In this document: positions 1 to 20,399 of the stretch, one piece after another | Layout of the letters: the number at the start of each line of letters is the position of its first letter | How positions within the stretch are numbered: position 1 is the first letter of the stretch | Origin: Candidatus Collierbacteria bacterium RIFOXYD2_FULL_45_13 | Lineage (GTDB): Bacteria; Patescibacteriota; Microgenomatia; UBA1400; MFAQ01 | Assembly: GCA_001774685.1 (NCBI GenBank) | Contig: MFAS01000001.1 | Location: forward strand, 479,557-543,556 | Direction of reading: 5' to 3' | Length of the DNA stretch: 64,000 nt | Program-made: the position numbers and the translations under genes | Notes under the pieces: generated by a model | Seen by the model: the letters and a program-made list of their open reading frames with translations, nothing else | Database searches by the model: none | Told to the model about the DNA's origin: nothing

Positions 1-3000
1 TATCCAGTACACCTCTCACTTGTACCTTCAACAACGCCCGCGATACAGGGACAATAGTTGTTTACAAAGACGTCCAGGGGCCTGCCGGGGAGGACGTTAC
101 GGATAATTCAAATTATTTTGAAGTGAGTTTGGATTCCGGCACGGGACAAACTATTTCGGACAACCTCACGGTTACTTACAATGACATACCTGTTGGAAGT
201 CACACTATTACGGAATCATTAATCGATTCAGACTACACTCTTTACGGAATAAGCAATACTGCCGGAGGATCCGGAAATACTGGCGGACTAACACTTAATG
301 TTACCACCGGAACAAACAATGTCTATGTAACCAACAGACAGAAAACCGGAAAAATAATAGTCATTAAAGATGTTGTAAATCCTAACGGTGGTGAAGTTTC
401 AGATTCTCATCCCTTTACAGCCAATCTCAGCCCGGGAGGTCAATCCTCATCAATTGCTGAAGGAAGTAACGCAGAGTTTACCGTCAATCCGGGAACATAT
501 ACTGTTTCGGAATCCGAGGATGGAGATTACACAAACTTTGGGTGTCTAACTGCCACAGGAAAAACCGACATTGTTGTCGCTTCAGGCGGGGAAGTCTCCA
601 TCACATGCAAAAATCAACAGAAACCAGCCACCATCACAGTCTATAAAAATGTTTTGAAGGCCGATGGTGTCACTGAAGTGTCCGATTCAAACGTATTCTC
701 CGTCACCTTAAGTGGTGAAACTAAAGATTTTTCGGAAGGTAACCCTGCCGTCTTCACTGTTAACCCCGGAGGTCCTTATGCTGCGGTCGAATCTCCTGAA
801 ACAAATTATCTTTGGGTTAGCCAGGACGGTTCCGTGACTGTATTTTCAAACGGCAGTGGAACTATTAATATCGTCAACAAGCAAAAAGCCGGTATCATTT
901 CCGGATATAAGTTTGACGCAACCAGCGGTTTGGGAATTTTAAATTGGGTAATCAACTTAACCGGTGCCTCAACCTTGACGACCTACACAGACGCTTCCGG
1001 TTTCTATGAATTCTTAGGTCTTAATGTTGGATCTTATACCGTTTCTGAAGATCAACCATCTGACTGGACACCAGTCGGAGTCACTTCTTACGATCTCACC
1101 GTCACTCCGGGAGATGAGCTTCTACAGAACAACTTTACCAACTTCCAAAACGGTTCTATTTCCGGTTACAAATATCATGATCTCAACCGCAACGGTACCA
1201 AAGACACAGACGAACCGGAACTTGACGGTTGGAGTATAAATCTGACTGGATCAGCATCAAATTCGGTAGTCACCGGCGCAGGCGACTGGCCTGATGGATA
1301 TTACGAATTTACCAATCTTGGACCGGGTACCTACCATGTTTCCGAGGAAAATCAAAACGGTTGGGTCCAGGAGGAACCTTCGGATAACGATCACGAAATC
1401 GTGATGACTTCAGGGGGAAATTTTACCGGCACAAACTTCGGCAATTTCCACCTTGAGCCGGAGCTATCCATCAACAAAGTCTTAGCCACTACCAGCCCCT
1501 CAGAAATTTTGGTTGGCGAGACCGCCACTTTTGAAATTACGATTACTAACGAAGGCAATGTCACTCTCCAAAATCCAATTATCTACGACACCTACGATGC
1601 AAGTTTCTTGGAATTTGTTTCCAGTTCCCCGGTCGCTCCGACCACTCACACCGGCGCAGTAGCCGACACCTCCGACTACGATGAAGATGGCGACACTACC
1701 GAGCTTATCCGCGACTTAACTTGGGAACTTCCTGTTTCCTTGGCTCCCGGAGAGTCGTACACGCTCACCGTGGTTTTCACCGCTATCCAGGCGACCGCCG
1801 AGCCTACGCTGACCGGGAACGAAGTCTATATGACCGCCTGCTACGAACAATGTGGCGATGGGCAGAGCCTTGAGACTCCTACTGATAACGCCTTTGTAGA
1901 TATTGATTCACTGGGTGGAGTATCCGGCCAAAAATGGATTGACACCGACGGGGACAGCGAATGGGACGAGAATGAGTCCACTCTCAATGGCGTTACCATA
2001 AATCTTCTCAATTCCGATGACGAAGTTACAAACACTACCACCACAGAAGATAACGGCAGCTACAGCTTCACCGATCTAGCTACCGGAACCTATACGGTTT
2101 GTGAGGAAGTTCCCACCGGACACACCCAAACTTACCCCAATGGCTGTCACAGTATCACTGTTACGGATGATGGTGACACTTTCGAGGGTAAAAACTTCGG
2201 CAACGCACCTTTAACAAATATCCACGGCTACAAATGGAGCGACGTAGACGGCAACGGTATTCGTGGGGGCGAGGGCGAAGACCTGCTTGGCGGTTGGACC
2301 ATCTTCCTGGACGAAAACGGCAATGAACGGTTGGACGAAGGTGAGCAATCGGATGTGACCGATTCAGAAGGGCATCACCTGGGTTGGTACGTCTTCAACA
2401 ACCTCATCCCCGGTGTCTATTCCATCTGCGAAATCATACAACCTGGTTGGTCTCAAACCTTCCCGATCAATAGTGAGGTTCAATCCGTCTGTCACTCCAT
2501 TACTTTGCCAAATGACGACCAACAGTCCGAAAACGGTACTGTTGGACCAGAATATCACTTTGGTAACGTCCGAATTGAGCCCGTAATTCAAATAAGTAAA
2601 ACCAACTTCGCCGGTGGAGACAAGACGCCCGGTGGGTCAGTTGGCTACCGAATTCTTATCAACATTTTGGACGCCGATGTAAACAATCTAGTCGTCAAAG
2701 ATCTTCTTCCCAAAGGTTTCGTCTACCGTACCGGCTCTTACCAAGTCGTCATCAACGAACTTGATGTTACCGGCGCCTTCTCAGCCCCTACCTACAGCTC
2801 TCCAGGTACCTGGAATCTGGGTAACGTTCACAAAGGTGACAATATCGAGCTTTTCTACACTGCCGATATTTCCTCAGATGAGTACCCCGGTACATACTTT
2901 GATGTTGCCATGGCACAAGGAAATTCTCTCAGCGGTTCAGAGGTTGTTGCCTTAGCGCAACTCGAAGGTTACATCGCTGACAACTTCGTTGGCACTAGCG

Positions 3001-3176
3001 TCAAAGTCGTCAAAGACCAGACTCGTGCCGAAGTCTACGATGTCGAGAAAAAAGTTGAAGGTCAAGTCCTCGGTGCCTCCACCAGTCTTCCGGCTACCGG
3101 AGCCAACGAACTATGGCTCCTGGCCTCGCTGATCTCCCTCTACTTTGGTCTTAGATTAATAAGAGCATCCAAATAA
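1..3176 (+). CDS. Giant LPXTG-anchored surface adhesin with DUF11 and Cna-B/SdrD-B-like repeats (5' end outside window)
   Basis: The frame is open from nt 3, and the upstream peptide TIVVYKDVQGPAGEDVTDNSNYFEV repeats the internal KIIVIKDVVNPNGGEVSD and TITVYKNVLKADGVTEVSD modules. There are repeated GYKW/GYKY..D.D.NG..D..E..L.GW SdrD-B-like units and a DUF11-like ISKTNFAGGDKTPGG..Y stretch. The C-terminus has LPATG (3087..3101) followed by a hydrophobic segment and an RLIRASK basic tail, which is a sortase cell-wall sorting signal. Confidence 0.8.
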   Translation, partial: SSTPLTCTFNNARDTGTIVVYKDVQGPAGEDVTDNSNYFEVSLDSGTGQTISDNLTVTYNDIPVGSHTITESLIDSDYTLYGISNTAGGSGNTGGLTLNVTTGTNNVYVTNRQKTGKIIVIKDVVNPNGGEVSDSHPFTANLSPGGQSSSIAEGSNAEFTVNPGTYTVSESEDGDYTNFGCLTATGKTDIVVASGGEVSITCKNQQKPATITVYKNVLKADGVTEVSDSNVFSVTLSGETKDFSEGNPAVFTVNPGGPYAAVESPETNYLWVSQDGSVTVFSNGSGTINIVNKQKAGIISGYKFDATSGLGILNWVINLTGASTLTTYTDASGFYEFLGLNVGSYTVSEDQPSDWTPVGVTSYDLTVTPGDELLQNNFTNFQNGSISGYKYHDLNRNGTKDTDEPELDGWSINLTGSASNSVVTGAGDWPDGYYEFTNLGPGTYHVSEENQNGWVQEEPSDNDHEIVMTSGGNFTGTNFGNFHLEPELSINKVLATTSPSEILVGETATFEITITNEGNVTLQNPIIYDTYDASFLEFVSSSPVAPTTHTGAVADTSDYDEDGDTTELIRDLTWELPVSLAPGESYTLTVVFTAIQATAEPTLTGNEVYMTACYEQCGDGQSLETPTDNAFVDIDSLGGVSGQKWIDTDGDSEWDENESTLNGVTINLLNSDDEVTNTTTTEDNGSYSFTDLATGTYTVCEEVPTGHTQTYPNGCHSITVTDDGDTFEGKNFGNAPLTNIHGYKWSDVDGNGIRGGEGEDLLGGWTIFLDENGNERLDEGEQSDVTDSEGHHLGWYVFNNLIPGVYSICEIIQPGWSQTFPINSEVQSVCHSITLPNDDQQSENGTVGPEYHFGNVRIEPVIQISKTNFAGGDKTPGGSVGYRILINILDADVNNLVVKDLLPKGFVYRTGSYQVVINELDVTGAFSAPTYSSPGTWNLGNVHKGDNIELFYTADISSDEYPGTYFDVAMAQGNSLSGSEVVALAQLEGYIADNFVGTSVKVVKDQTRAEVYDVEKKVEGQVLGASTSLPATGANELWLLASLISLYFGLRLIRASK

Positions 3177-3177
3177 A

Positions 3178-4143
3178 ATGAAACTAAAACTATTTCTTCT
3201 TGCTGCCCTTGCGGTATATATCTTCCCAAATGTTATTTTCGCCGCGAGTTTCTCGCTTACCATCGATCGGCCGAAATCCCCCTCAAGAATTGATAACTTC
3301 AATCTGACCGGCACATCCTTAGATCGGCCGAACGCGACTAGGAACATTACCGTTAAATGTTACAAGAAGGGTCCGTCAGACAGCAACTTCGTTCAATTTG
3401 ATACAGATCAGATTTTGATTCCGGGAGGAAATGTGTATTCATGTTCTGTCAACAATAGTACTTTGAATTCGGATGGAGTCTATTCTTTCAAAACAGTCGC
3501 CTCGGTAAGCGAACCGTCATTTGAACAGTTGACAAGCGACATTGTTAATTATGACTACAACACCTCCGGACCGAGTACTCCGGTCAATTACTCCAAAGAG
3601 CGCCTTAATAGTTGCGATTACAAGATCAAGTTTAAGACCGCCGATGATGGCAAGACCGTCAAAGTCCAGATTTTCCGTTCCGACACTCTCAGCATTCATG
3701 TCGACGCTGGTGCTGTGCTGACTTCCGTCAATATCTCACCGAACACCGAAGGGGAAATTACCAACAGTGTTCCGATTTGTGGCAAGGATTATTACTACGT
3801 TATCAGAGCTGTAGATAGCTCAGACAACGCTTCCGGCACTATCGGCGATAGTTTCACGACTACCACGACCACGAGTACCACCACCGGCTCTGTCGCCGGA
3901 AGTCAAACTGGTGGGACGGGTGCCATAGTTCTCACCGACGCTTCTGCTCAGGTCGCCGAACCGGGTCAAACAACTTCCGATACACCGGAACCAATTATCG
4001 ATAACTCTCAAGCCCCCACACCCTCGATTCTCGGTACTTCTACCGAAGACCGGAAAAAAATCACCAAGTGGTTGTTGGGAGCCGCAGCTATTATCGTCGG
4101 TTATCTGCTAATGAAGGCCCGCCGTAGATCAAAATCGAAGTAG
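3178..4143 (+). CDS. Secreted Ser/Thr-rich surface protein, Fn3-like, with C-terminal membrane anchor
   Basis: The N-terminal signal peptide is MKLKLFLLAALAVYIFPNVIFA. There is a T/S-rich linker (TTTTTSTTTGS), and the C-terminus is a hydrophobic helix plus a KARRRSKSK tail. No LPXTG motif is seen. Confidence 0.6.
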   Translation: MKLKLFLLAALAVYIFPNVIFAASFSLTIDRPKSPSRIDNFNLTGTSLDRPNATRNITVKCYKKGPSDSNFVQFDTDQILIPGGNVYSCSVNNSTLNSDGVYSFKTVASVSEPSFEQLTSDIVNYDYNTSGPSTPVNYSKERLNSCDYKIKFKTADDGKTVKVQIFRSDTLSIHVDAGAVLTSVNISPNTEGEITNSVPICGKDYYYVIRAVDSSDNASGTIGDSFTTTTTTSTTTGSVAGSQTGGTGAIVLTDASAQVAEPGQTTSDTPEPIIDNSQAPTPSILGTSTEDRKKITKWLLGAAAIIVGYLLMKARRRSKSK

Positions 4144-4152
4144 AATAGAATT

Positions 4153-4725
4153 GTGAAATATTTACTCGGCATTGCTCTCATTATCTTTGCCTTTGTTGTC
4201 TTGGGGGGAACTTTCCTCCCTGTTCTTCAGCAAGAGATCAGTTACGATCTGGCCAAGTATCAAAATCCATCCGACATCAAAGACCTCAAACCTCTGGATA
4301 CCGATTTCGGTGTCATCATTCCCAAGATTGGAGCCAACGCTCATGTCATCAAGAACGTCGATCCATACAACTCAGTCATATATCAGTCCGCACTTACCGG
4401 GGGAGTGGCTCACGCCAAAGGATCAGCCTTACCTGGCCAAACGGGTAATATCTTTTTATTTTCTCATTCTTCCGCCGATTTTCTCAACGCTACGAAATAC
4501 AACTCTATTTTCTATCTTCTAAGCAAGATGGAAAAAGATGATCCTATCAAACTATTTTACGAGGATAAAGAGTTCAGTTATCTTGTCCAAACGAAACAGA
4601 TTGTGGCTTCTGACGCCATTCAATTTTTAACCTATGAAGCCAAAGCGGAGACCCTTACTCTGATGACTTGTTGGCCCCCGGGAACATCGCTGAGGCGTCT
4701 CATCGTTCAGGCCACCAGACTGTAG
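4153..4725 (+). CDS. Sortase (transpeptidase), class A/E-like
   Basis: It has an N-terminal TM anchor, a conserved His in NIFLFSHS, the catalytic TLxTC motif (TLTLMTCWP) and a downstream conserved Arg (SLRRL). It sits directly downstream of the LPATG protein. Confidence 0.8.
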   Translation: MKYLLGIALIIFAFVVLGGTFLPVLQQEISYDLAKYQNPSDIKDLKPLDTDFGVIIPKIGANAHVIKNVDPYNSVIYQSALTGGVAHAKGSALPGQTGNIFLFSHSSADFLNATKYNSIFYLLSKMEKDDPIKLFYEDKEFSYLVQTKQIVASDAIQFLTYEAKAETLTLMTCWPPGTSLRRLIVQATRL

Positions 4726-4802
4726 TGTGCCGCACTCCCAGGTCTATTGTTTATCCTAACAATCCATCTTATAATTGCCACATTGAATTTTATCTTACAA
4801 AA

Positions 4803-6476
4803 ATGCTAATTTCAGATTCTGACCTAATCAAGCTGGTTCTCCATAAAAAGTTACTTTCCAAAAAAGACCTGGAGAACATAAAAGGGGGACAGAAGGAGTC
4901 ATCAGATTCCCTGCTCAGTCTTATTATGAACTCAGGTCTGGTCGCTGAGGAAGCCCTCTACTTGGAAATCGCTCGCAATCTTCACCTACCATACACCAAA
5001 CTCTCTCCGTCTAAAATCGAAAAAACCATTCTCGGTCTTCTTCCGGAAAAGGTCGCTAGAAATAAAAAGGCGATCGTTTTTGACCGGGATAAAAAATGTC
5101 TTAAGATAGCCGTTTCGGATTCCTCGAACAAGGAGCTCATTGGCCTCATCTCACAAAAGACCGGTCAGCGGGTTAAGCTATACTTGACCTTACCCTCCGA
5201 GATAAAAAAAATCCTCCCTCTCTATAGACTCCCTTTGCAGAAAGCGATAGATAATATTTTGAAAGACAAGTCCGATCTTGGTTTAGAAGCAGCTCCGGTT
5301 AAAAAAATTGTCGACTTACTCATTCTCTACGCTTATCAGGACGGAGCCTCCGATATTCATGTCGAGCCGGAGGAAAATAGTTTCGTCATCCGCTACCGTA
5401 TCGACGGCATTCTTCACGACGTTCTCACTCTTCCAAAAGACCTGTTGGACAGAGTCGCTACTCGTGTCAAAGTCCTGTCCCGCTTAAGAACCGATGAACA
5501 TCAAAATCCTCAAGACGGTAAGTTCAGGTTTCCCCTGGAAGAGGAGAATCTGGATCTTCGTGTTTCCATTATTCCGGTGGCCGATGGCGAAAAAGTGGTG
5601 ATGAGACTCTTAACTTCCAAGTCCCGCGAATATTCACTGGAAAATATTGGCTTTAACCCCATCGACTTAAAAACCATTCAAAAAGCCCTCAATCGTTCAT
5701 ACGGCATGATTCTTTCCACCGGACCCACAGGGTCGGGCAAGACCACCACCATCTATGCTCTAATCAAAACTCTAAACACCAGAGAAAGGAACATCACCAC
5801 AATCGAAGATCCCGTGGAGTACCGCATCAAAGGAGTGAATCAAATTCAGGTAAATCCAAAAACTAACCTCACCTTTGCCAACGGTTTGGGGTCTATTCTT
5901 CGTCAAGATCCCAATATTATCTTCGTTGGTGAAGTTCGCGATAGTGAGACAGCGGCTATTGCCGTCAATGCCGCCCTTACCGGTCACTTGGTTTTCTCCA
6001 CTCTCCACACCTCAGACGCTGTCGGGGCAGTTCCTCGTTTACTGGACATGGGGATAGAGCCCTTTCTCCTGACCTCCACCGTTAATGTTATCGTTGCCCA
6101 GAGACTTCTAAGGAAAGTGTGTGATGACTGCAAAGAATCCCTTGTTATCTCCCGCAAAGAACTAGCCAAGAATATCCCCCAGGATTCCATCAAGCGTATT
6201 TTTGGTTCTTCACAAAAAATCAAAATATTCCAGGGAAAAGGTTGCCCCACTTGTCACCAAACTGGCTATCTCGGTCGGGTGGGCATCGTTGAGGTTTTAA
6301 CCATGACCAAAAATATCAAAAAAATGATCATCGAAGGTCGAGACTCCGATCAAATATTAGAGGTTGCTGTCAAAGAAGGTATGGTTACCATGTTCGATGA
6401 TGGCCTAAAAAAAGCCGGTATGGGCATAACCACTATTGGGGAAGTGCTTCGAGTTACCAAGATTGAATCTTTATGA
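4803..6476 (+). CDS. pilB: Type IV pilus assembly ATPase PilB/GspE family
   Basis: It has a T2SSE_N-like N-terminus, Walker A GPTGSGKTT, Asp box, His box and a C-terminal tetracysteine (CDDC...CPTC). The internal ATG at 4803 was chosen because the ORF-track start at 4668 overlaps the sortase gene. Confidence 0.85.
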   Translation: MLISDSDLIKLVLHKKLLSKKDLENIKGGQKESSDSLLSLIMNSGLVAEEALYLEIARNLHLPYTKLSPSKIEKTILGLLPEKVARNKKAIVFDRDKKCLKIAVSDSSNKELIGLISQKTGQRVKLYLTLPSEIKKILPLYRLPLQKAIDNILKDKSDLGLEAAPVKKIVDLLILYAYQDGASDIHVEPEENSFVIRYRIDGILHDVLTLPKDLLDRVATRVKVLSRLRTDEHQNPQDGKFRFPLEEENLDLRVSIIPVADGEKVVMRLLTSKSREYSLENIGFNPIDLKTIQKALNRSYGMILSTGPTGSGKTTTIYALIKTLNTRERNITTIEDPVEYRIKGVNQIQVNPKTNLTFANGLGSILRQDPNIIFVGEVRDSETAAIAVNAALTGHLVFSTLHTSDAVGAVPRLLDMGIEPFLLTSTVNVIVAQRLLRKVCDDCKESLVISRKELAKNIPQDSIKRIFGSSQKIKIFQGKGCPTCHQTGYLGRVGIVEVLTMTKNIKKMIIEGRDSDQILEVAVKEGMVTMFDDGLKKAGMGITTIGEVLRVTKIESL

Positions 6477-7528
6477 AAACCTTAGACAAAGTTAGAATTA
6501 GCAACAACGACAAGTTAAACTTTCTTTCCAGCTTAGTCACCATGTTGAATGCCGGATTATCTGTTCTAGAGATAGTGGGATCTTTGGCTGAGGAGTCACA
6601 GGGTAATCTCAAAATATTTCTGGACGAACTTTACGAGGATATCTCTCAGGGACATACCATTTCGTCCACCATGTCCAAATTCCCTCGGATTTTCGACAAA
6701 ATCACCGTTAACGTTATTCGTTCCGCCGAAGAAAGCGGCACTTTGGAATCCACCATTCGGGAAGTCGAGTTAAGCCTAGAAAAATCCATCAAGTTTAACG
6801 ACAAGATCAAATCAGCGATGCTGTATCCCATGGTTGTCACCATCGTGTTCTTTGTAATTGTTATCGGTATTCTTGTTTTCGTCATCCCCAAAGTTACTTC
6901 AGTCTTTATTACTCTCAACATTGATCTGCCCTTACCCACCAAGATTCTCCTTTTTATCTCCAATATTCTAACTCAGCATACCTTGATTCTCTTAGCCTCA
7001 CTTCTCGTACTGGGTGCAGGAACCTTTTTAATCTATTTAAAGAAGCGTACCTGGTTCATCAATCGTCTAATCTCTCTTCCCTTTATCTCCAAGATTGTCG
7101 CCGATATTGATCTGGCCAGATTTTCTCACAACCTATCTCTTTTGCTGGACGCCGGCATCCCCATTATCACCAGTTTGGACTTGACCAGAGAAGTCATTAT
7201 CAGAGAAGATATCAGACTAGCCATAGAAGATACCAAAGAAATGGTTTCGTCAGGGAAAAGAATGTCCGAAGGTTTCAAAAAAGCCAAAAAGTTATTTCCC
7301 AAACTTATGGTTCTCATTGCCGATGCGGGGGAACACTCTGGATCTTTAAGTACGTCCATGGAATATATTTCCAAACATCTCGAATATCAGGTCGAGAAAA
7401 GACTGTTCTCGGCCGCCACCTTGATTGAGCCGGTCATGCTCGTCATTATTGGCTTGGTCGTTGGGGGGATGATGCTATCGATCATTAGCCCGATTTACTC
7501 TTTAATTGGCCAAATTGGACCACACTAA
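6473..7528 (+). CDS. pilC: Type IV pilus inner-membrane platform protein PilC/GspF
   Basis: It has a duplicated T2SSF domain architecture with three TM segments, and its start overlaps the pilB stop by 4 nt. Confidence 0.8.
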   Translation: MKTLDKVRISNNDKLNFLSSLVTMLNAGLSVLEIVGSLAEESQGNLKIFLDELYEDISQGHTISSTMSKFPRIFDKITVNVIRSAEESGTLESTIREVELSLEKSIKFNDKIKSAMLYPMVVTIVFFVIVIGILVFVIPKVTSVFITLNIDLPLPTKILLFISNILTQHTLILLASLLVLGAGTFLIYLKKRTWFINRLISLPFISKIVADIDLARFSHNLSLLLDAGIPIITSLDLTREVIIREDIRLAIEDTKEMVSSGKRMSEGFKKAKKLFPKLMVLIADAGEHSGSLSTSMEYISKHLEYQVEKRLFSAATLIEPVMLVIIGLVVGGMMLSIISPIYSLIGQIGPH

Positions 7529-7530
7529 AG

Positions 7531-8007
7531 ATGAGCCATCCCATCCACCATTCCGGACACACTTTAATCGAACTTCTGGTTGTCATGGGTATGTTCACTA
7601 TCCTTTTTGCCGTCTCTTCATTTAACCTTCTGGGGGCCAGATCGCACACCTCTTTGGGTACCACTGTCGACACCTTGCTTACCGATCTTCGTGGCCAACA
7701 AACCCGCGCCATGAACGGAGATACAGGCGGAAGCGGTTCTCCTTCAGACTACGGAGTCCATTTCTTGACGAATGGCTACACTCTCTTCCAAGCACCATAT
7801 TCTCCCTCCGATCCCTCAAATCTTACGGTGTCACTCGACGATGTCGTTATTACCAACACTTTTCCTTCGGACGAGGTTGTCTTTACCCGAGGCAGTGGCG
7901 AGGTTGCTGGGGGTGGTGCTTCAATCCGTCTCACCGGGACCACTTCTCCGGTAGGCCCCCTGATTATTACTCTCAATCGTTTTGGTGTTATTCAGTCAGT
8001 TAATTAA
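7531..8007 (+). CDS. Pseudopilin (GspH/FimT-like minor pilin)
   Basis: The N-terminal prepilin-type segment is GHTLIELLVVMGMFTIL (class III signal, Glu at +5). Confidence 0.65.
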   Translation: MSHPIHHSGHTLIELLVVMGMFTILFAVSSFNLLGARSHTSLGTTVDTLLTDLRGQQTRAMNGDTGGSGSPSDYGVHFLTNGYTLFQAPYSPSDPSNLTVSLDDVVITNTFPSDEVVFTRGSGEVAGGGASIRLTGTTSPVGPLIITLNRFGVIQSVN

Positions 8008-9876
8008 ATGACGAACACTAATCACAAAGGCCAGTCACTTATCGAACTTCTCGTCACCATGGGCTTGCTGACAATTTTTATGCCGGCTCTGGTCAGTGGT
8101 CTGGGTGCTTCTCGTCTCGGCAAAGCTCAACAATCACAAAGATTGGATGCTTTGGAAATACTCAAGGAAACCGAGGAAGCTACTCGCGCCGTGAGGGACA
8201 ATGACTGGGAGAATGTCAAAACCGACGGCACTTATCATCCGAACATTTCCGGAAACACCTGGATATTAAGCTCTGGAACGGATAATGTAAACGGTTTTAC
8301 CAGATCAATAGCCATTAGCGGTGTCCTGAGGGACTCTAGTACCGGAGTTATCTCTCCCACTGGTACCATTCCGGATCCCTCGGTTAAAAAAGTTGACTTA
8401 AGAATTTCTTGGACTACTCCAAATTATTCACATTTGGACACCACCTTTTATCTATCCAGATTCGTCGACAACACTGCTCTTCCAGGTTCAGGTACAATCC
8501 AACCACTTTCTGGTCACGGCGACTGGTGCAACCCTTTAACCGATAATTACAACCGTTTAAATCTTTACCACTCAAGCCAACCCAGTAGCATTATTGCCGG
8601 AATTAACAAGGTGTATGTCGGTACCACCAAAGACTCTTCGGGTTATGCCTTTGACGATGTCAGTATCGATCACAGCATAACCCCTTTTGCTCTCACTGGA
8701 GAAACAAATTACCAAAGTCCAGGATTACGGGCGAACGATGTTTTTACGGAATCAATCTATGCCTATATCGCTCCTGATAGTAACAATCAAGATGAAGTGA
8801 TCATTCTTGATGTTTCGGGAGCCAATCCCTCTCTTATTTCAGCGGTGAACTTCAACGGCAACAAAGGATCCAAGACACTTTATGTCTCGCACAACTCGAT
8901 AGTTAACAAAGATATTCTGTTCTTTGTTGCTTCCAACAACAATTTGTATTCATATGACATAACTGATCGCAATAATCCGATCGCCAAAGGCGTGCTTTTC
9001 GTTGGGGATACGAGCAGAATATTTGTAGTAGACAATTATGTCTTCTTAGCTCAAATATCCACGGCAAACCAGTTTCAAATCATCGACGCTTCGGATCCCA
9101 CTAATCTAAGAAAACCAGGAGGAAAGGGGTTCCTAAAACTAAACGACCAACCGGGGCAAGATGTGTTTGTAAATATTGATGGCACAAGAGCCTATTTTAT
9201 TACTCGAAAATCAGACTTAAATCCAGAGTTTTTTATTATAAATATTTCCGACAAAACCAATCCAGTCCAAATCGGTACCGGTTATGATACATATCTCCCT
9301 TCTGACCTCACCAAACAAATGGACCCAAAAGGGGTTACGGTAATTAACAAAAGAGCCATTGTCGTGGGTTTTGGTAGTCCACCTTATCAAGTATTTAGGA
9401 TTGAGAGTGATAATTATGATCTGTGCAAAGCAGTTACTACCCTAGGATCCTTTACTGTGGACAATTTATATGATGTTTCGTCTATTCTTAATAATGGTCA
9501 CGCTTATTCATACCTGATTGCGGACAACTCATCGGCAGAACTTCAAATAATTGAAGGGGGGAGCGGGGAACCGGGAGGTAGTGGTATGTATGAGTCGAGT
9601 ACTTTCGATGCCGGGCACGATGTTGCCTGGAACAACTTTACCGCCACGTCTGATCCAAATCTCTCTTACAAGTTCTCTCTCAAACACGGCTCTAGCGGTA
9701 GTTGTACGGGCGTAACCTTTACCGATACCGACTTTAATACTTTTACACCAGGACCTCTACCTCTTACCACTATTGGCTCAGGCTACACCAACCCGGCTCA
9801 ATGTATGCGTTATCGAGTGGTTAACTCTGGGTCGACTGCCGCCAGCTACACTATCACCATCAATTACTCACCATGA
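8008..9876 (+). CDS. Large pilin-like protein: prepilin N-terminus fused to LVIVD-type beta-propeller domain
   Basis: The N-terminus GQSLIELLVTMGLLTIF is a prepilin methylation-type helix. Residues about 195-430 carry reiterated VIILDVSGANP, IFVVDNY, FQIIDASDPTN and FFIINISDKTNP motifs, typical of LVIVD beta-propeller blades. Confidence 0.6.
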   Translation: MTNTNHKGQSLIELLVTMGLLTIFMPALVSGLGASRLGKAQQSQRLDALEILKETEEATRAVRDNDWENVKTDGTYHPNISGNTWILSSGTDNVNGFTRSIAISGVLRDSSTGVISPTGTIPDPSVKKVDLRISWTTPNYSHLDTTFYLSRFVDNTALPGSGTIQPLSGHGDWCNPLTDNYNRLNLYHSSQPSSIIAGINKVYVGTTKDSSGYAFDDVSIDHSITPFALTGETNYQSPGLRANDVFTESIYAYIAPDSNNQDEVIILDVSGANPSLISAVNFNGNKGSKTLYVSHNSIVNKDILFFVASNNNLYSYDITDRNNPIAKGVLFVGDTSRIFVVDNYVFLAQISTANQFQIIDASDPTNLRKPGGKGFLKLNDQPGQDVFVNIDGTRAYFITRKSDLNPEFFIINISDKTNPVQIGTGYDTYLPSDLTKQMDPKGVTVINKRAIVVGFGSPPYQVFRIESDNYDLCKAVTTLGSFTVDNLYDVSSILNNGHAYSYLIADNSSAELQIIEGGSGEPGGSGMYESSTFDAGHDVAWNNFTATSDPNLSYKFSLKHGSSGSCTGVTFTDTDFNTFTPGPLPLTTIGSGYTNPAQCMRYRVVNSGSTAASYTITINYSP

Positions 9877-10352
9877 AGCAAATATCTATCAACCACCCGG
9901 GTTTTACCATTGTCGAGTTGCTAATTTACATGGGGGTTTCGGCGATTATTCTGGTTTCTCTGACACAGGTTTTTGTCATGATAGGCCGCCTAAGATTAGA
10001 ATCACAATCGTACTCTCTGCTTCAACAAGACGGCGTTTATTTACTATCCAGACTTAGCTACGATGTTGCCCGGTCCGGTAGCATTTCCACCCCGATCCTT
10101 GGAGCACAGGGTAACGTTCTTCAAACAGACAAGGTTAGATATTTCTTGGATAGTAACCGTCTCCGGATCACCGACTCTGTTGGCACGGAGTTTCTTACCG
10201 GTGGCGATATCACCATCTCCAACTTAAACTTTCATCACCTGGACGGAGGCACTCATGAAAACGTCAGGGTGTCTTTCACTCTTACTAGCCAAATCAAAGA
10301 ACCATCAGGTTTACAAACAAAAGATTTTAGTACCACCGTCGGGACTAGATAA
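9873..10352 (+). CDS. Pseudopilin (PilV/PilW/GspJ-like minor pilin)
   Basis: It has the PGFTIVELLIYMGVSAIIL prepilin N-terminus and a 4-nt overlap with the upstream gene. Confidence 0.65.
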   Translation: MKQISINHPGFTIVELLIYMGVSAIILVSLTQVFVMIGRLRLESQSYSLLQQDGVYLLSRLSYDVARSGSISTPILGAQGNVLQTDKVRYFLDSNRLRITDSVGTEFLTGGDITISNLNFHHLDGGTHENVRVSFTLTSQIKEPSGLQTKDFSTTVGTR

Positions 10353-10357
10353 AGAAT

Positions 10358-10747
10358 ATGGCCAAGAAACAACCTCAAGGAAACATTTTAATCACCTTAA
10401 TCGTTTTTATGTTGATATCTTCAATCGTTGTTTCTTCTGCTGTGGCGATCATAATTACGAACTCTACCGCAGCTTCAAAAGTCGAGCAGGGGCAGATGGC
10501 TTACGAGGCGGCCGAAAGCGGTCTTGAAGAGGCCATCATTCAGTTACTTCGTAATCCGGATTTTTCAGGCACGGTCAGCCATGTTTCTACCGGACTTTCC
10601 GAATTTTCCTATACCATTGGACCTATTTATCCGAAGACCATCGATTCATACGGCTCGTATCACCAATTCACCAGACATTTAAACACCACCGCCACGTATA
10701 ATCTTCAGGGTAGTTTAATAATTGGTAGGTGGCAGGAAATCTACTAA
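10358..10747 (+). CDS. Minor pilin, PilX-N-like
   Basis: There is a hydrophobic N-terminal helix after a short basic leader, followed by an AYEAAESGLEEAI motif resembling the PilX N-terminal domain. Confidence 0.45.
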   Translation: MAKKQPQGNILITLIVFMLISSIVVSSAVAIIITNSTAASKVEQGQMAYEAAESGLEEAIIQLLRNPDFSGTVSHVSTGLSEFSYTIGPIYPKTIDSYGSYHQFTRHLNTTATYNLQGSLIIGRWQEIY

Positions 10748-10752
10748 TCTAT

Positions 10753-11775
10753 ATGAAAAACACCAATCAAAAATCCTTTCTATATCTGGACTCCGGCCAT
10801 CTTTATTTTGTTTATCCGGGCTTGGAAAAACCAATCAAGTTCAATTATCCCCCCAAAGCAATCTCTGATTTGGAAATCAATGACCGATCTTTGTTGGTTA
10901 ACGGTTTGGATGCCTCACTTTTTTCCCAGAAAGTTACTCCTGGACCCCTAATTATTATTTTGTCCAAAAACATCACTTTTCAAAAAAAGATGGAGATCGG
11001 TACCCAAGAAGAAACAAAACAAGAATTTTTGGAAAGTATCCCTTTTGAGAACGTGAGTATCAAGCACTACAATGCTCACAATGGCGGGCCTCTCCTCGTC
11101 ACCAATAAGGATTTTTTTCAGGAGTTCCAAACTATTTTTTCGGCGCGTGGATTTTCGATTGAGGCGATCATTCCTGAAGCTGTTTTGACCTCCAGTACCA
11201 ATAGTTTTAACCCAAAGCAAATAAATTCATATGCGACGCTACATCTCACAGCATCGCTAGTTCACAGTCTCAGTCTCATCGGTGTCTATAACCGCTATGA
11301 GCCCAGAATCCAAAGGATAGCCCGCAAACAATTTGCTCTCAACAAAAACTTGCGAACCTTGATCATCGTCTTCATCTTTGCTCTCCTGATTCTGGCCGGC
11401 TCCTTCGCCTATTCCCGGATTAAATATTCCCGTCCAATTCCGGAAGTATCCCGTCCTGTCGTGGTCACCCCGGTCAAAATGGTCACGGACGATCCGCTCT
11501 TAGTGAACATCCGGATCTATTATTTTGGTAAAAACGAAAAACAGGCGAGAACACTCCAAAGCAATCTTTGGGCCGCTGGTTTCAAAAATACGGACTTGGT
11601 TGCTTCCTCCTCCGCGATTATTAAATCCAATCTTTTCGTTTCTTCGCAATTATCGACCAATATAACTCAACAAATTCGTCTGGAATTGGATAAGGTGGAT
11701 CGCAATTATAGCTTGATGCAAACGTCCAATTCAGTGTCGGAATCGAGCATCTTCTTATCCTCACCTGCCAAGTGA
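10753..11775 (+). CDS. Pilus assembly protein, PilM-like N-domain fused to PilN-like TM/periplasmic domain
   Basis: It is about 340 aa, with a cytoplasmic N-half (FLYLDSGHLYFV as a possible actin-like phosphate-1 motif), a single central TM (LIIVFIFALLILAGSFAY) and a C-terminal periplasmic domain. Its position in the T4P operon supports the call. Confidence 0.4.
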   Translation: MKNTNQKSFLYLDSGHLYFVYPGLEKPIKFNYPPKAISDLEINDRSLLVNGLDASLFSQKVTPGPLIIILSKNITFQKKMEIGTQEETKQEFLESIPFENVSIKHYNAHNGGPLLVTNKDFFQEFQTIFSARGFSIEAIIPEAVLTSSTNSFNPKQINSYATLHLTASLVHSLSLIGVYNRYEPRIQRIARKQFALNKNLRTLIIVFIFALLILAGSFAYSRIKYSRPIPEVSRPVVVTPVKMVTDDPLLVNIRIYYFGKNEKQARTLQSNLWAAGFKNTDLVASSSAIIKSNLFVSSQLSTNITQQIRLELDKVDRNYSLMQTSNSVSESSIFLSSPAK

Positions 11776-11804
11776 TTGACAAGCCTGTATAAAAGTGCTT
11801 AAAT
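11776..11804 (+). promoter_or_regulatory. Sigma70-like promoter for major pilin gene (TTGACA -17 nt- TTAAAT)
   Basis: TTGACA at 11776..11781 sits immediately after the upstream stop, followed by a 17-nt spacer and TTAAAT at 11799..11804, then a 31-nt leader to the ATG at 11836. Confidence 0.45.
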
Positions 11805-11835
11805 ATGCGCAATTAATAAAAATTAGTACAAGTCT

Positions 11836-12306
11836 ATGGCTAAAACCAAACAAAATCAAAAAGGTTTTACTCTTATCGAGCTCTTAGTCGTCATGGGAAT
11901 CCTCGCCGTCCTGTTAGCCGCCGTTCTTATCGCCATCAACCCTGATCGTCAGTTCAAGCAGGCTAGAGACAGTCAACGCCGCAGTGATGTCTTGACCATC
12001 CTCAACGCCGTCCAGCAAAACATTGCAGACAACAAGGGTACCTTCTCAGGTGCCGCATTGGGAGCAGTCAAAACTATTGCCAAATCAACTCCACCCGCTG
12101 CAGGTGAGATTGATATTTGTGGCGCGATCTCTCCCGTCTACACCTCAATGCTGCCTTCAGATCCAAACTCCAGCAATCCTAATGGTGTTGTCGACTGTAC
12201 TGCCGACTACAATACCGAATACACCATTTCCCAAACCGGTGGCCGCATTACCGTTGCCGCCTCCGCTGAGACAGCAGGAGTCGATCCCATCTCGGTCACT
12301 CGATAA
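11836..12306 (+). CDS. pilA: Type IV major pilin (PilA-like)
   Basis: The leader is MAKTKQNQKG followed by FTLIELLVVMGILAVLLAAVLIA. The protein is 156 aa, with two Cys (CGAIS...DCTAD) forming a likely D-region disulfide. It has its own promoter and terminator. Confidence 0.85.
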   Translation: MAKTKQNQKGFTLIELLVVMGILAVLLAAVLIAINPDRQFKQARDSQRRSDVLTILNAVQQNIADNKGTFSGAALGAVKTIAKSTPPAAGEIDICGAISPVYTSMLPSDPNSSNPNGVVDCTADYNTEYTISQTGGRITVAASAETAGVDPISVTR

Positions 12307-12330
12307 AGTTATCAAAGCTTAACTTTTAAA

Positions 12331-12360
12331 AATACTCCGCCGAAAGGCGGAGTATTTTGT
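12331..12360 (+). terminator. Rho-independent terminator after pilin gene
   Basis: The stem AATACTCCGCC / GGCGGAGTATT flanks a GAAA loop and is followed by TTTTG. Confidence 0.65.
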
Positions 12361-12386
12361 GGATAATCTTGGCTATAATTTGCAGT

Positions 12387-12689
12387 ATGATCAGTCTCAA
12401 AAAACTCCAAAAACAAATCTACGCCAATAAAATTAAAAAGGGTTTCAATACCACCGATATTTACAAAGAGTTTTGTTTGATTCACGAAGAGGTTACCGAA
12501 GCCTGCCGTGCCCACTATCGAAAAGAATATTCCGTCGGCGAAGAGCTGGCCGATGTTGCTATATACCTTCTTGGCTTGTCGGAGATTCTCAATATCAATC
12601 TGGAGAAAGAGATCAAAAGAAAGGTTCTGAAAAATCATAAACGCGTATACAAACGAATTGGTGGCGTTTTAACCAAAACACGGGCATAA
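12387..12689 (+). CDS. MazG-like nucleotide pyrophosphohydrolase
   Basis: It has the EEVTEA...EELADVAIYLLGLSEILNINLEKEI helix pair typical of the MazG/NTP-PPase fold. The ATG at 12387 was chosen because the ORF-track TTG start overlaps the terminator. Confidence 0.55.
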   Translation: MISLKKLQKQIYANKIKKGFNTTDIYKEFCLIHEEVTEACRAHYRKEYSVGEELADVAIYLLGLSEILNINLEKEIKRKVLKNHKRVYKRIGGVLTKTRA

Positions 12690-12730
12690 CTATATTCAAA
12701 GAAATCATCCTGTGACATAATGGTTTTGTT

Positions 12731-13621
12731 ATGGCACATCCTGCCCTCACCCTGTTCTTTCCTCATCCACACAACAATCACAAGGCTAAGGTCCTCTGGC
12801 CAAAGTCCATTGTCATCTTGATCGGGCTCTTTATCATGGGCCGCTCCATTGTGGACATTACCATCGGACTTCTTCCTGGCGTTCTCGGTTATGCTTCTCA
12901 AATCGACCCCGCCAAAGTAATTGAGCTAACAAACAACGAGCGTCTCAACGCCGGGCTAACTATCGTCAAACAAAATCAGGAACTAAATCAAGCCGCTCTG
13001 GCCAAGGCTTCCGATATGTTTGCTCACAACTACTGGGCCCACGTATCTCCCGCCGGTACCGAGCCTTGGTCCTTTGTCATTTCTTCCGGTTACAAATATC
13101 AGCATGCGGGAGAAAACCTTGCTCGGGACTTTGGCAATCCTTCCGATATTGTCAAAGCTTGGATGGCCTCTCCAACCCATCGCCAAAACCTACTGGACAA
13201 TCGTTACAAAGATATTGGGGTTGCCGTCATGGATGGTTATCTCAACGGGGTCGAGACTACTATCGTTGTCCAAATGTTTGGCACACCCCAAACTTCGGTC
13301 TCCAATATTGCTTCGGATCGTGTCGAGGTCAAGCCGGCTCTAGCGGTCGAAAAGGCGGTCCTACCTGCCCAAAACACGGAAGTGGTTCCCCTGCCGTCTC
13401 CTACCAAGCTGATTCCTTCTTCCGGTTTATCTCCTTTGGATCTAAAGCGGTCATGGTCCTTGGCCTTTGCCATCATTGTTCTCTTTGCCCTTAGTTTGGA
13501 CTGGATCTTTGTCCTTAGGTACAATATCATCCGTATCTCAGGAGATACCTGGGCCCACCTAACCTACTTCTTAGGTATGGCTGCCATTTTGATTATCATT
13601 AGACAAGGCATCATACTATGA
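12731..13621 (+). CDS. CAP/SCP/PR-1 domain protein, membrane-anchored
   Basis: The CAP-domain motifs HNYWAHVSP...GENLA...W..SPTHRQNLL...IGVAV are present. It has an N-terminal TM and a C-terminal double TM. Confidence 0.7.
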   Translation: MAHPALTLFFPHPHNNHKAKVLWPKSIVILIGLFIMGRSIVDITIGLLPGVLGYASQIDPAKVIELTNNERLNAGLTIVKQNQELNQAALAKASDMFAHNYWAHVSPAGTEPWSFVISSGYKYQHAGENLARDFGNPSDIVKAWMASPTHRQNLLDNRYKDIGVAVMDGYLNGVETTIVVQMFGTPQTSVSNIASDRVEVKPALAVEKAVLPAQNTEVVPLPSPTKLIPSSGLSPLDLKRSWSLAFAIIVLFALSLDWIFVLRYNIIRISGDTWAHLTYFLGMAAILIIIRQGIIL

Positions 13622-13869: not shown

Positions 13870-13906
13870 TGAAAAAAGTTGCGCTGTATCGTATAATATA
13901 CCCTGT

Positions 13907-14989: not shown

Positions 14990-14992
14990 TCT

Positions 14993-15988: not shown

Positions 15989-15991
15989 AAA

Positions 15992-16555: not shown

Positions 16556-16560
16556 TCACT

Positions 16561-17472: not shown

Positions 17473-17491
17473 TCAGGTATACTATTATCAG

Positions 17492-18608: not shown

Positions 18609-18611
18609 CCT

Positions 18612-19349: not shown

Positions 19350-19355
19350 AGAGCT

Positions 19356-20150: not shown

Positions 20151-20153
20151 GAA

Positions 20154-20396: not shown

Positions 20397-20399
20397 CAT

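What the first reader, a model, noticed from the sequence alone, without database searches (positions are those of the whole stretch)
1..4725. Adhesin-sortase module: giant LPATG protein, Ser/Thr-rich Fn3-like protein and sortase directly upstream of the pilus operon
The sequence directly shows a 1017-aa or longer repeat protein ending in LPATG, a hydrophobic segment and a basic tail, followed two genes later by a TLxTC sortase. Sortase-mediated anchoring next to a type IV pilus operon points to a Gram-positive-like or unusual envelope in a small-genome organism. Together they look like an attachment island.
Basis: partly seen in the sequence, partly recalled or inferred. Interest (0 to 1): 0.55.

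Follow-up and report, generated by a model that had tools for sequence, protein, structure and literature searches.

The report
Conserved adhesin–partner–sortase cassette in Collierbacteria
A tiny-genome groundwater bacterium (Candidatus Collierbacteria) carries a three-gene unit: a giant fast-evolving surface adhesin with a cell-wall sorting signal, a membrane-anchored two-domain partner protein, and their own sortase; the unit recurs across its relatives, often with adhesin and partner fused into one protein, while the pilus operon next to it is a local accident.

Summary
Window 1-3176 is the C-terminal 1057 aa of a 1674-aa secreted protein made of SpaA/SdrD_B/DUF11 beta-sandwich repeats. 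It ends in LPATG, a hydrophobic segment and a basic tail. Gene 3178-4143 encodes a signal peptide, two FnIII-like domains, a Ser/Thr-rich linker and a C-terminal membrane anchor, with no LPXTG. Gene 4153-4725 is a genuine sortase (PF04203; His105, Cys173 and Arg182 intact; sortase fold). It reaches no class A-F threshold.

In 81 related genome loci, adhesin, partner and sortase are almost always contiguous (79 loci). All 73 sorting signals in 1.22 Mb lie directly upstream of the sortase. In 33 of 79 loci, and in 93 of 140 family representatives, adhesin and partner form one ORF with an internal LPxTG. Both proteins share a GxVLG motif of unknown role.

The type IV pilus linkage is not conserved. 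It occurs in 4 of 80 other loci. The closest relative is collinear but lacks the 7.7-kb pilus operon.

Sortases and type IV pili in these candidate-phyla (CPR) bacteria are already known. The obligate partner, the extended signal and the polyprotein form did not turn up in my literature searches. Most likely the sortase anchors the adhesin to the cell wall, which is inferred, with the partner as a membrane-tethered co-factor. Ligation of the adhesin to the partner is not excluded.

The parts
1..3176 (+). C-terminal 1057 aa (residues 618-1674) of a 1674-aa secreted modular adhesin (G1). It consists of tandem SpaA_2/Cna_B-like and SdrD_B beta-sandwich domains plus two DUF11 domains.
   Evidence: Each roughly 95-aa repeat carries a Lys-strand (GxIxVxK), an E-box (YxVxE) and an Asn-strand (FxN). 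Orthologs range from 885 to 2324 aa and are 37-47% identical between genomes whose flanking genes are 85-98% identical.
3060..3083 (+). GQVLGAST: conserved extension of the sorting signal. Family consensus is G-[EQ]-V-L-G-A-[ST]-T-x-LPxTG-A-x-x-x-W.
   Evidence: Position-by-position counts over 75 signals.
3087..3101 (+). LPATG sortase recognition motif.
   Evidence: It is the only LPxTG sorting signal in the 64-kb window. Across 75 signals Pro and Gly are invariant, Leu occurs in 71 and Thr in 73.
3111..3173 (+). Hydrophobic segment LWLLASLISLYFGL (3111-3152) and basic tail RLIRASK (3153-3173). The stop codon TAA is at 3174-3176.
3178..4143 (+). Partner protein (gene2, 321 aa). Layout: signal peptide aa 1-22; FnIII-like domain 1 aa 25-127; FnIII-like domain 2 aa 136-231; Ser/Thr-rich disordered linker aa 226-290; TM aa 298-312; basic tail KARRRSKSK. 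No LPXTG. The start codon lies 1 nt after the adhesin stop.
   Evidence: Four Cys plus G84, P132, D157, T160 and S219 are invariant in 74 modules. The family has 809 representatives at E<=1e-3.
4027..4035 (+). ILG of the conserved (E)G-x-[VI]-L-G-[ET]-x-T motif in the partner's linker, 11-35 aa before the TM.
   Evidence: The Gly is 97% conserved in 74 modules. It is the same core motif that precedes LPATG in the adhesin.
4153..4725 (+). Sortase (190 aa, GTG start 9 nt after the gene2 stop). N-terminal TM helix aa 2-36. Catalytic His105 (nt 4465-4467), TLMTC with Cys173 (nt 4657-4671), Arg182 (nt 4696-4698). No lid and no C-terminal TM.
   Evidence: Pfam PF04203 at 9.4e-21. TIGR01076 scores 40.9 against a cut-off of 39.35, and no class model reaches its cut-off. 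Best PDB sequence hits are class C sortases at 2.6e-06. The triad is conserved. AF2 pLDDT is 83.8, and Foldseek matches class D, C, E and A structures about equally at roughly 1e-10.
4803..12306 (+). Neighbouring type IV pilus operon: PilB, PilC, several N_methyl (pseudo)pilins including a 622-aa pilin with an LVIVD repeat, and major-pilin-like 11836-12306. It is not part of the cassette; it is inserted here relative to the closest relatives.

Best explanation
Window 1-4725 is one copy of a three-gene surface-display cassette that is conserved across Microgenomates, WWE3 and Moranbacteria.

Shown:
- A Sec-exported, fast-evolving giant adhesin built of Cna_B/SpaA/SdrD_B-type stalk domains ends in an extended sorting signal: GxVLGASTxLPATGA, then a TM segment, then a basic tail.
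- The next gene encodes a Sec-exported protein with two FnIII-like domains, a Ser/Thr-rich stalk and a permanent C-terminal membrane anchor.
- The third gene encodes a membrane-anchored sortase with an intact His-Cys-Arg triad.
- The three genes are separated by 1 nt and 9 nt here. In many lineages the first two are a single ORF.

Inferred:
- The sortase cleaves the adhesin between Thr and Gly of LPATG. It then transfers the adhesin to an amine of the peptidoglycan precursor, fixing it covalently to the Gram-positive-like wall of the CPR cell.
- The partner stays in the membrane beside it, in a presumed 1:1 ratio, as a scaffold or docking factor for sorting or display. It may engage the sortase through the shared GxVLG motif.
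- In the fused versions, sortase cleavage at the internal LPxTG and signal-peptidase cleavage after the second TM would give the same two products.

The adjacent type IV pilus operon is a separate machine that landed here through a lineage-specific rearrangement.
For: Component identity:
- Domain content and the sorting signal of the adhesin.
- Sortase family, catalytic triad and fold.

Linkage:
- 79 of 81 loci around sortase homologs have a gene2 module directly upstream of the sortase.
- All 73 true sorting signals found in 1.22 Mb of these loci lie within two genes upstream of the sortase. The only two other regex hits were membrane proteins.
- The sorting signal is conserved position by position.

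Fusion:
- 33 of 79 loci have adhesin and partner in one ORF. This was checked with the ORF listing on L050 (2631 aa) and L041 (2411 aa).
- 93 of 140 family representatives are long proteins. 90 of them carry LPxTG plus a TM 339-429 aa from the C-terminus.
- The junctions read LPxTG-TM-basic-hydrophobic-AxA-partner, which is topologically consistent with a TM hairpin.

Partner protein:
- Confident two-domain beta-sandwich model with RbmA/FnIII-pair matches.
- None of the 47 free-standing representatives has LPxTG in its last 60 aa.

Background and pilus operon:
- Searches show the pilus operon is not a conserved neighbour.
Against: - No biochemical step is shown. The acceptor nucleophile is unknown, and I could not examine this genome's peptidoglycan genes or cross-bridge.
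- The sortase fits none of classes A-F, so its chemistry cannot be read off from a characterised class. Its best sequence matches are pilin-polymerising class C enzymes.
- Strict coupling and frequent fusion with a membrane-anchored partner is not a feature of ordinary housekeeping anchoring. It hints at a more specific relationship.
- The role of the GxVLG motif is unexplained.
- Only 70 kb of the 1.09-Mb genome was visible, so other sortases or substrates elsewhere cannot be excluded.
Confidence: 0.6

Rival explanations
1. Protein-to-protein ligation. The sortase joins the adhesin's LPAT-threonine to an amine on the partner protein (a Lys side chain or its new N-terminus after signal-peptide removal). 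This would build a covalent two-part fibre tethered to the membrane by the partner's C-terminal TM: a minimal, membrane-based version of a sortase-assembled pilus with a basal subunit.
For: - There is near-obligate adhesin-partner-sortase synteny, and the first two are fused into one ORF in most of the family, a Rosetta-stone type of argument.
- The best NCBIfam and PDB sequence matches of the sortase are class C pilin polymerases.
- The partner has no LPXTG and keeps a permanent anchor.
- Its architecture (signal peptide, two FnIII-like domains, C-terminal TM) is the one proposed for the pilus-terminating anchor PamR in another CPR pilus (bioRxiv 10.64898/2026.03.03.709456).
- A 'QPK(S/T)P' motif near the mature N-terminus superficially recalls the YPK pilin motif.
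Against: - No Lys is universally conserved in 74 partner modules. K140 is at 85%, and K33 of 'QPK' is at 69% overall and 44% in fused forms.
- The predicted mature N-terminal residue varies.
- The sortase lacks the class C lid and the C-terminal TM, and scores 53 bits against a class C cut-off of 160.
- No YPK pilin motif occurs in the adhesin.
Confidence: 0.2
2. Attachment island. The adhesin-sortase genes and the type IV pilus operon form one co-selected, co-regulated functional unit for attachment to a host or surface.
For: - All genes are on the same strand, and only 77 nt separate the sortase stop from the pilB start, with no terminator-like site between them.
- pilB-pilC directly follow, or flank, the sortase in four other loci from different lineages: L011, L012, L017 and L041. 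That is more often than random adjacency would predict.
- Both systems plausibly serve host contact in episymbiotic CPR bacteria (PMC11623550 abstract).
Against: - 76 of 80 other loci have no pilB/pilC within the fetched flanks. 68 of these loci have at least 3 kb downstream.
- The closest relatives (L004, L009, L023) go straight from the sortase to the gene that lies after the pilus operon in the window.
- No pilus protein carries a sorting signal.
Confidence: 0.1
3. Release rather than anchoring. The sortase acts mainly as a processing protease, with water or a soluble amine as acceptor. It frees the adhesin from its membrane-bound precursor or polyprotein, so the adhesin is shed or held non-covalently by the partner.
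For: - The polyprotein forms need a cleavage at the internal LPxTG to separate the two ectodomains.
- Sortases can hydrolyse their acyl-enzyme slowly (general knowledge).
Against: - Free-standing adhesin genes keep the full signal even though no separation is needed.
- Transpeptidation to wall precursors is the established outcome for every characterised LPXTG, TM and basic-tail signal (general knowledge).
- There is no direct evidence either way.
Confidence: 0.07

Closest known systems
Housekeeping sortase with LPXTG-anchored MSCRAMM-type adhesins (e.g. Staphylococcus aureus SrtA with SdrC/SdrD)
   Same: - Tripartite C-terminal sorting signal: LPXTG, hydrophobic stretch, basic tail.
- SdrD_B and Cna_B-like stalk domains.
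- Membrane-anchored sortase with a TLxTC Cys, a His and an Arg, and the sortase fold.
   Different: - The sortase reaches no class A-F model cut-off.
- It is encoded next to its substrate instead of serving many scattered substrates.
- The signal is extended by a conserved GxVLGAST block.
- There is an obligate two-FnIII membrane partner, often fused to the adhesin.
- There is no MSCRAMM A-domain or SD repeat; the SdrD model scores 64.7 bits against a cut-off of 2500.
Sortase-assembled pilus gene clusters of Gram-positive bacteria (e.g. Corynebacterium diphtheriae spaABC-srtA; class C sortases)
   Same: - A compact cluster of a large SpaA/Cna_B-domain LPXTG protein, a second smaller surface protein and a dedicated sortase.
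- The best sequence matches of the sortase are class C enzymes.
   Different: - There is no lid (DP[WFY] N-terminal to strand 1) and no C-terminal TM on the sortase.
- There is no YPK pilin motif in the adhesin.
- The second protein has no LPXTG and stays membrane-anchored.
- There is no evidence of polymerisation.
PamR of the Pam pilus of CPR bacteria (Troman et al., bioRxiv 10.64898/2026.03.03.709456)
   Same: - The partner protein has the architecture described for PamR: a signal peptide, two tandem FnIII-like domains with RbmA as the best structural match, and a C-terminal TM helix proposed to tether a surface fibre to the membrane.
- Both are restricted to CPR bacteria.
   Different: - Pam pili are described as donor-strand-exchange fibres with FimC-like chaperones and no sortase.
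- In the window, no family hit or 77 pointed to such chaperones or pilins, though that is a weak test for a novel family.
- The tandem FnIII fold is generic (TM-scores 0.2-0.35).
Gram-positive-type (secretin-less) type IV pili of CPR bacteria
   Same: - The neighbouring operon has PilB, PilC and several N-methyl pilins, and no secretin. This matches what is reported for Microgenomates (PMC7143001).
   Different: - It is a neighbour, not a component.
- The linkage is found in 4 of 80 related loci.

Membership tests
Sortase superfamily (PF04203) | Profile match above the curated threshold | tested here: met
   Pfam Sortase scores 74.3 bits against a cut-off of 26.6, E 9.4e-21. TIGR01076 scores 40.9 against 39.35.
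Sortase superfamily (PF04203) | Catalytic His, Cys (TLxTC) and Arg | tested here: met
   H105 and R182 are invariant in 28 homologs. C173 in TLMTC is nearly invariant (one homolog, P0037, has Thr). H105 and R182 align with the His of GHS and the Arg of class C structures.
Sortase superfamily (PF04203) | Eight-stranded sortase beta-barrel fold with an N-terminal membrane anchor | tested here: met
   AF2 pLDDT is 83.8, with helix 2-36 followed by a beta-barrel. Foldseek returns 138 PDB matches at E<=1e-3; all 50 listed are sortases, the best at 8.7e-11.
Class C (pilin-polymerising) sortase | Class-specific HMM score | tested here: not met
   NF033745 scores 53.3 bits against a cut-off of 160.
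Class C (pilin-polymerising) sortase | Lid with a DP(W/F/Y) motif N-terminal to the barrel, and a C-terminal TM helix | tested here: not met
   The protein ends right after the last strand (…RRLIVQATRL). The only DPY (aa 70-72) lies after strand 2, not in a lid. The segment between the TM and strand 1 is short and unconserved.
Class A, B, D, E, F or GN sortase | Class-specific HMM score | tested here: not met
   Class D scores 48.5 against 165, SrtD 51.3 against 140, class E 33.1 against 160, class F 18.6 against 166 and class GN 28.1 against 158. Classes A and B are not among the hits. Structure matches to D, C, E and A are equally good. No phylogeny with reference sequences was built.
LPXTG cell-wall sorting signal | LPXTG, then a hydrophobic segment, then a positively charged tail at the C-terminus | tested here: met
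   The sequence is LPATG-ANE-LWLLASLISLYFGL-RLIRASK. The signal is conserved in 73 orthologous signals.
LPXTG cell-wall sorting signal | Cleavage between Thr and Gly and amide linkage to peptidoglycan | not testable with these tools
   This needs biochemistry or mass spectrometry.
MSCRAMM Sdr-family adhesin | Full-length family model (A-domain, B-repeats and SD repeats) | tested here: not met
   SdrD scores 64.7 bits against a cut-off of 2500, and SdrC 45.7 against 1700. Only the B-repeat region matches.
Sortase-assembled pilin (SpaA type) | Pilin motif (…YPK) providing the nucleophile Lys | tested here: not met
   There is no [YFQ]PK in the adhesin. The 'QPK' Lys of the partner is only 69% conserved.
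Sortase-assembled pilin (SpaA type) | Cna_B/SpaA-type domains with a Lys / E-box Glu / Asn triad (intramolecular isopeptide) | tested here: inconclusive
   The motif triads recur in about 8 domains, and SpaA and SpaA_2 Pfam hits are present. Bond formation itself cannot be tested.
PamR-like membrane anchor of CPR Pam pili | Signal peptide, two RbmA-like FnIII domains and a C-terminal TM helix | tested here: met
   AF2 model. The top Foldseek hit is RbmA 4be5 at 2.4e-06.
PamR-like membrane anchor of CPR Pam pili | Sequence homology to PamR and location in a pam operon with PamA/B pilins and PamC/D chaperones | not tested
   The PamR sequence could not be obtained. No such neighbours are recognisable in the window.

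The most novel reading that the evidence does not exclude
The cassette could be a previously undescribed kind of sortase system. In this reading the enzyme's real job is to couple a hypervariable giant adhesin to a dedicated membrane-anchored FnIII stalk protein, either covalently or through a GxVLG-mediated ternary complex. That would give a wall-independent, membrane-tethered fibre. The widespread single-ORF form would then be a self-contained 'sortase-processed polyprotein' with an internal sorting signal. I found no precedent for this in the literature I could search.
Probability: 0.2. Interest if true: 0.7.

Novelty: new variant of a known kind. Interest (0 to 1): 0.5.

Why it matters
CPR/Patescibacteria make up a large share of bacterial diversity and appear to live attached to other cells, yet the molecules that mediate attachment are mostly unknown. 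Earlier genome surveys noted only that sortases and type IV pili are present.

This analysis adds three things:
- In Microgenomates and their neighbours the sortase has essentially one nearby client. That client is a fast-evolving giant adhesin, a plausible host-range determinant.
- The sortase always travels with an uncharacterised two-FnIII membrane protein.
- The adhesin and this partner are frequently made as one polyprotein with an internal sorting signal.

Together these give a concrete, testable three-protein system, with defined peptides, a small soluble enzyme domain and a small partner ectodomain. It can be used to study how wall-anchored or membrane-tethered adhesins are built in organisms that mostly cannot be cultured.

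The analysis also corrects the tempting reading that sortase and pilus genes form a conserved island.

Tried and rejected
1. My first pass over the related loci read the long upstream proteins as adhesin-partner fusions lacking LPXTG. Printing the junctions showed an internal LPxTG, TM and basic stretch followed by the partner's signal peptide, so that reading was wrong and was dropped.

2. I considered the 'QPK(S/T)P' motif near the partner's mature N-terminus as a pilin-motif-like nucleophile. The Lys is only 69% conserved (44% in fused forms) and no other Lys is universal, so it is not supported.

3. I considered the DPY at sortase aa 70-72 as a class C lid. It is in the wrong position, after strand 2.

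4. I considered the upstream S8 subtilase (L001 2713-3933) as part of the unit. It is not conserved near the sortase.

5. A homolog search with the last 231 aa of the adhesin returned only 3 proteins. It was uninformative about the GxVLG motif outside CPR.

7. Literature searches for LPXTG in CPR bacteria, and for internal sorting signals or sortase polyproteins, found nothing relevant.

8. No tRNA or obvious mobile-element marker was found that could explain the pilus-operon insertion. The junctions were not analysed further.

9. A sortase phylogeny with reference class A-F sequences was not built, because no reference set was available offline. Class was judged from NCBIfam class models and structure matches instead.

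Full report
**What is in the window**

The ORF listing shows three consecutive + strand ORFs at 123-3176, 3178-4143 and 4153-4725, followed by a long + strand gene array. The first ORF is open to the window edge.

An exact-protein look-up placed the window on GCA_001774675.1, contig MFAP01000001.1 (1.09 Mb), and in two other assemblies. Window 1-600 is 100% identical to L001 5849-6448. The source names for the three proteins are Candidatus Collierbacteria, from Rifle groundwater genomes.

**The adhesin (G1)**

The full first gene (L001 4000-9024) encodes 1674 aa. In order, it has:
- a signal peptide (MKQKISKKILSVILTFNLVLQSFSPFLVSPVYA/DD);
- a Pro/Thr-rich linker of about 130 aa;
- an unassigned region;
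- a long series of beta-sandwich domains.

Pfam finds SdrD_B (1.3e-35, four stretches), SpaA, CarboxypepD_reg, DUF11 (two stretches) and SpaA_2. The repeats carry recurring GxIxVxK, YxVxE and FxN motifs. This is the Lys / E-box / Asn pattern of Cna_B/SpaA-type stalk domains. Isopeptide formation is inferred only.

The C-terminus is ...GQVLGASTSLPATG-ANE-LWLLASLISLYFGL-RLIRASK. It is the only LPxTG sorting signal in the 64-kb window.

**The middle gene (gene2)**

Gene2 encodes 321 aa and starts 1 nt after the adhesin stop. It has no Pfam or NCBIfam hit. Its parts are a signal peptide, a poly-Thr/Ser linker, and a C-terminal TM followed by KARRRSKSK.

A 36-sequence alignment shows four invariant Cys and a conserved C-terminal 'TP(S/E)(V/I)LG(T/S)xT' motif, but no LPXTG. 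AlphaFold2 with that alignment gave pLDDT 78.9. It shows two confident beta-sandwich domains (aa 25-127 and 136-231), a disordered linker and a terminal helix.

The best Foldseek matches in the PDB are the Vibrio cholerae biofilm scaffold RbmA (2.4e-06) and tandem FnIII pairs, with FimC/YadV chaperones further down. TM-scores are low (0.2-0.35) because domain orientation differs.

**The sortase**

Gene 4153-4725 matches Pfam Sortase at 74 bits against a cut-off of 26.6. It just passes the generic TIGR01076 model. It stays far below every class-specific NCBIfam cut-off: class C 53 against 160, class D 48 against 165, class E 33 against 160, class F 19 against 166.

PDB sequence hits are weak. 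They are led by class C enzymes at 2.6e-06.

In 28 homologs, His105 (FLFSHSS) and Arg182 are invariant. Cys173 (TLMTCWPPGT) is nearly invariant; one homolog has Thr.

The AF2 model (pLDDT 83.8) is an N-terminal TM helix plus a sortase barrel. It has no lid and no C-terminal TM. It matches class D, C, E and A structures about equally, at roughly 1e-10.

It is a genuine sortase of an unclassified, CPR-typical clade.

**Surroundings**

Downstream lie PilB (T2SSE, 4e-128), PilC, five or six N_methyl (pseudo)pilins and a major-pilin-like gene, with no secretin. Next come a small MazG-like gene and a CAP-domain membrane protein. After those come dTDP-rhamnose genes, then about 40 kb of GT2, GT4 and PMT_2-type glycosyltransferases, a flippase and YfhO.

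**Survey of related genomes**

A scan of one genome per species with the sortase alignment found more than 547 relatives; 80 loci with up to 10-kb flanks were kept. They span Collier-, Gottesman-, Davies-, Chisholm-, Levy-, Roizman-, Shapiro- and Woesebacteria, WWE3 and Moranbacteria. I called ORFs and compared them with the window's proteins. Results:

1. 79 of 81 loci have a gene2 module directly upstream of the sortase.
2. All 73 true LPxTG, TM and basic-tail signals in 1.22 Mb lie within two genes upstream of the sortase.
3. The signal is conserved well beyond LPxTG. The consensus is G-[EQ]-V-L-G-A-[ST]-T-x-L-P-[AS]-T-G-A-x-x-x-W.
4. The partner's linker carries the same G-x-[VI]-L-G core 11-35 aa before its TM. 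The Gly is 97% conserved, as well as the fold core.
5. pilB/pilC adjoin the sortase in only 4 of the 80 other loci: L011, L012, L017 and L041.
6. A CAP-domain gene follows the sortase in about 14 loci.

**Polyprotein forms**

In 33 of 79 loci the adhesin and the partner are one uninterrupted ORF. I confirmed this independently with the ORF listing: L050 2092-9987 (2631 aa) and L041 2698-9933 (2411 aa).

I first misread these proteins as lacking LPXTG. The junctions in fact read ...VLGASTxLPATGAxxxW-TM-KKxK-hydrophobic-AxA-[partner]. The sorting signal is therefore internal, and its basic tail doubles as the n-region of the partner's signal peptide. This gives a topologically consistent TM hairpin.

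A profile search of 1.84 billion representatives found 809 family members at E<=1e-3. Of 140 newly retrieved top representatives, 93 are long proteins with the module at the extreme C-terminus. Of those, 90 have an LPxTG-type motif plus a TM 339-429 aa from the end. None of the 47 free-standing partners has LPxTG in its last 60 aa.

The fused form is thus the commoner one across the family's diversity. The window carries the split form.

**The pilus operon is not part of the unit**

The closest relative, L004, has a sortase 79% identical and flanking proteins 78-98% identical. It is collinear with window 1-4725 and then with 12387-22362. In L004 the sortase is followed after 9 nt by the ortholog of window 12387-12689. 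L009 and L023 show the same arrangement.

The 7.7-kb pilus operon is therefore an insertion or rearrangement in this lineage. Its recurrence at the same side of the sortase in four other lineages is noted but unexplained.

**Evolutionary behaviour of the adhesin**

Between the window genome and L004 the adhesin is only 37-47% identical, and its length differs (1674 against 2324 aa). Across other relatives it ranges from 885 to 1773 aa. The N-terminal ~265 aa and the C-terminal 200-430 aa are conserved, and the middle repeats are variable. This is typical of a surface protein under diversifying pressure.

**Mechanism**

The sequence features and linkage are shown. The chemistry is inferred from the established sortase paradigm: Sec export, retention by the TM and basic tail, cleavage at LPAT|G, and transfer to an amine of the wall precursor. 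[quoted passage not shown]

The partner is most simply a membrane-tethered scaffold or docking factor. I infer it is made in a 1:1 ratio and next to the adhesin's sorting signal.

The alternative is that the sortase ligates the adhesin to the partner. It is attractive because of the fusions, the class C-like affinities and the PamR-like architecture. It lacks a conserved nucleophile Lys, a lid and a pilin motif. I give it about 0.2.

**Novelty**

Already published:
- sortases in CPR genomes and the inference of a Gram-positive-like envelope;
- type IV pili in these organisms (PMC6744442, PMC7143001, PMC5220378 listed).

I found nothing in the searchable literature on the obligate FnIII partner, the extended GxVLG...LPxTG signal or the internal-signal polyprotein. 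That library is incomplete, so this is absence of evidence only.

I rate the feature a new variant of a known kind, of moderate interest.

Noticed in passing
window 4726-12386: The whole type IV pilus operon (PilB, PilC, pseudopilins, major pilin) sits between the sortase and a MazG-like gene. In the closest relatives (L004, L009, L023) these two flanks are adjacent, 9 nt apart in L004. This looks like a 7.7-kb lineage-specific insertion or rearrangement. No tRNA was found in the window, and no repeats or mobile-element genes were looked for at the junctions.
   Followed up: partly
L011, L012, L027, L035-L037, L041, L047-L051, L053, L055, L058-L060, L063-L065, L068, L070-L072, L074-L082 (e.g. 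L050 2092-9987; L041 2698-9933): In Roizman-, Shapiro- and Woesebacteria, WWE3, Moranbacteria and others, the adhesin and the FnIII partner are one ORF. An internal LPxTG, TM and basic stretch is followed by a signal-peptide-like TM with an AxA site. This implies a polyprotein that would be cut by sortase and signal peptidase.
   Followed up: yes
window 3060-3083 and 4027-4035; gene2 aa 248-250: The adhesin and its partner share a short linear motif, G-x-[VI]-L-G-[AET]-x-T, and the partner's otherwise variable linker has a second conserved 'GAI' motif. Both are as conserved as the fold core. Their function is unknown.
   Followed up: partly
window 8008-9876: A 622-aa protein has an N-terminal pilin-type methylation motif and an LVIVD-repeat hit. 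It is an unusually large minor pilin, possibly a pilus-tip adhesin.
   Followed up: no
window 12731-13621: A CAP/SCP (PR-1-like) domain protein has N- and C-terminal hydrophobic segments. Its orthologs lie directly downstream of the sortase in about 14 related loci, so it may be a looser fourth member of the neighbourhood.
   Followed up: partly
window 13907-17472 and 21310-63223: dTDP-rhamnose synthesis genes (RmlA/B/C/D-like) are followed by about 40 kb of envelope-glycan genes. These include at least seven PMT_2/GT-C membrane glycosyltransferases (three of them in a tandem run of ~557-aa ORFs at 52908-61336, with one more at 52908), seven or more GT2, two GT4, GT87, YfhO and a flippase. The PMT-like enzymes could O-glycosylate the Ser/Thr- and Pro/Thr-rich linkers of the two surface proteins; this is speculation.
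   Followed up: partly
window 31979-35041; also 38773-40407, 41493-43157, 50385-52067, 54578-56281: These are large ORFs (1020, 544, 554, 560 and 567 aa) with no Pfam match, embedded in the glycosyltransferase region.
   Followed up: no
whole window: GC skew is negative in all but one 2-kb bin (44001-46000, +0.009; cumulative -3.43), while nearly all genes are on the + strand. This is a strong strand compositional bias of the kind reported for another Microgenomates genome (PMC7143001 title).
   Followed up: no
P0037 (Candidatus Collierbacteria GW2011_GWB1_44_6 sortase homolog); L008 and L012: One sortase homolog has Thr in place of the catalytic Cys (TLMTTWPPGT). Two loci carry two sortase genes flanking or following the cassette.
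   Followed up: no
L001 2713-3933 (upstream of the window): A secreted subtilisin (Inhibitor_I9 plus Peptidase_S8) is encoded immediately upstream of the adhesin gene in this genome. It is not conserved at this position in relatives.
   Followed up: partly
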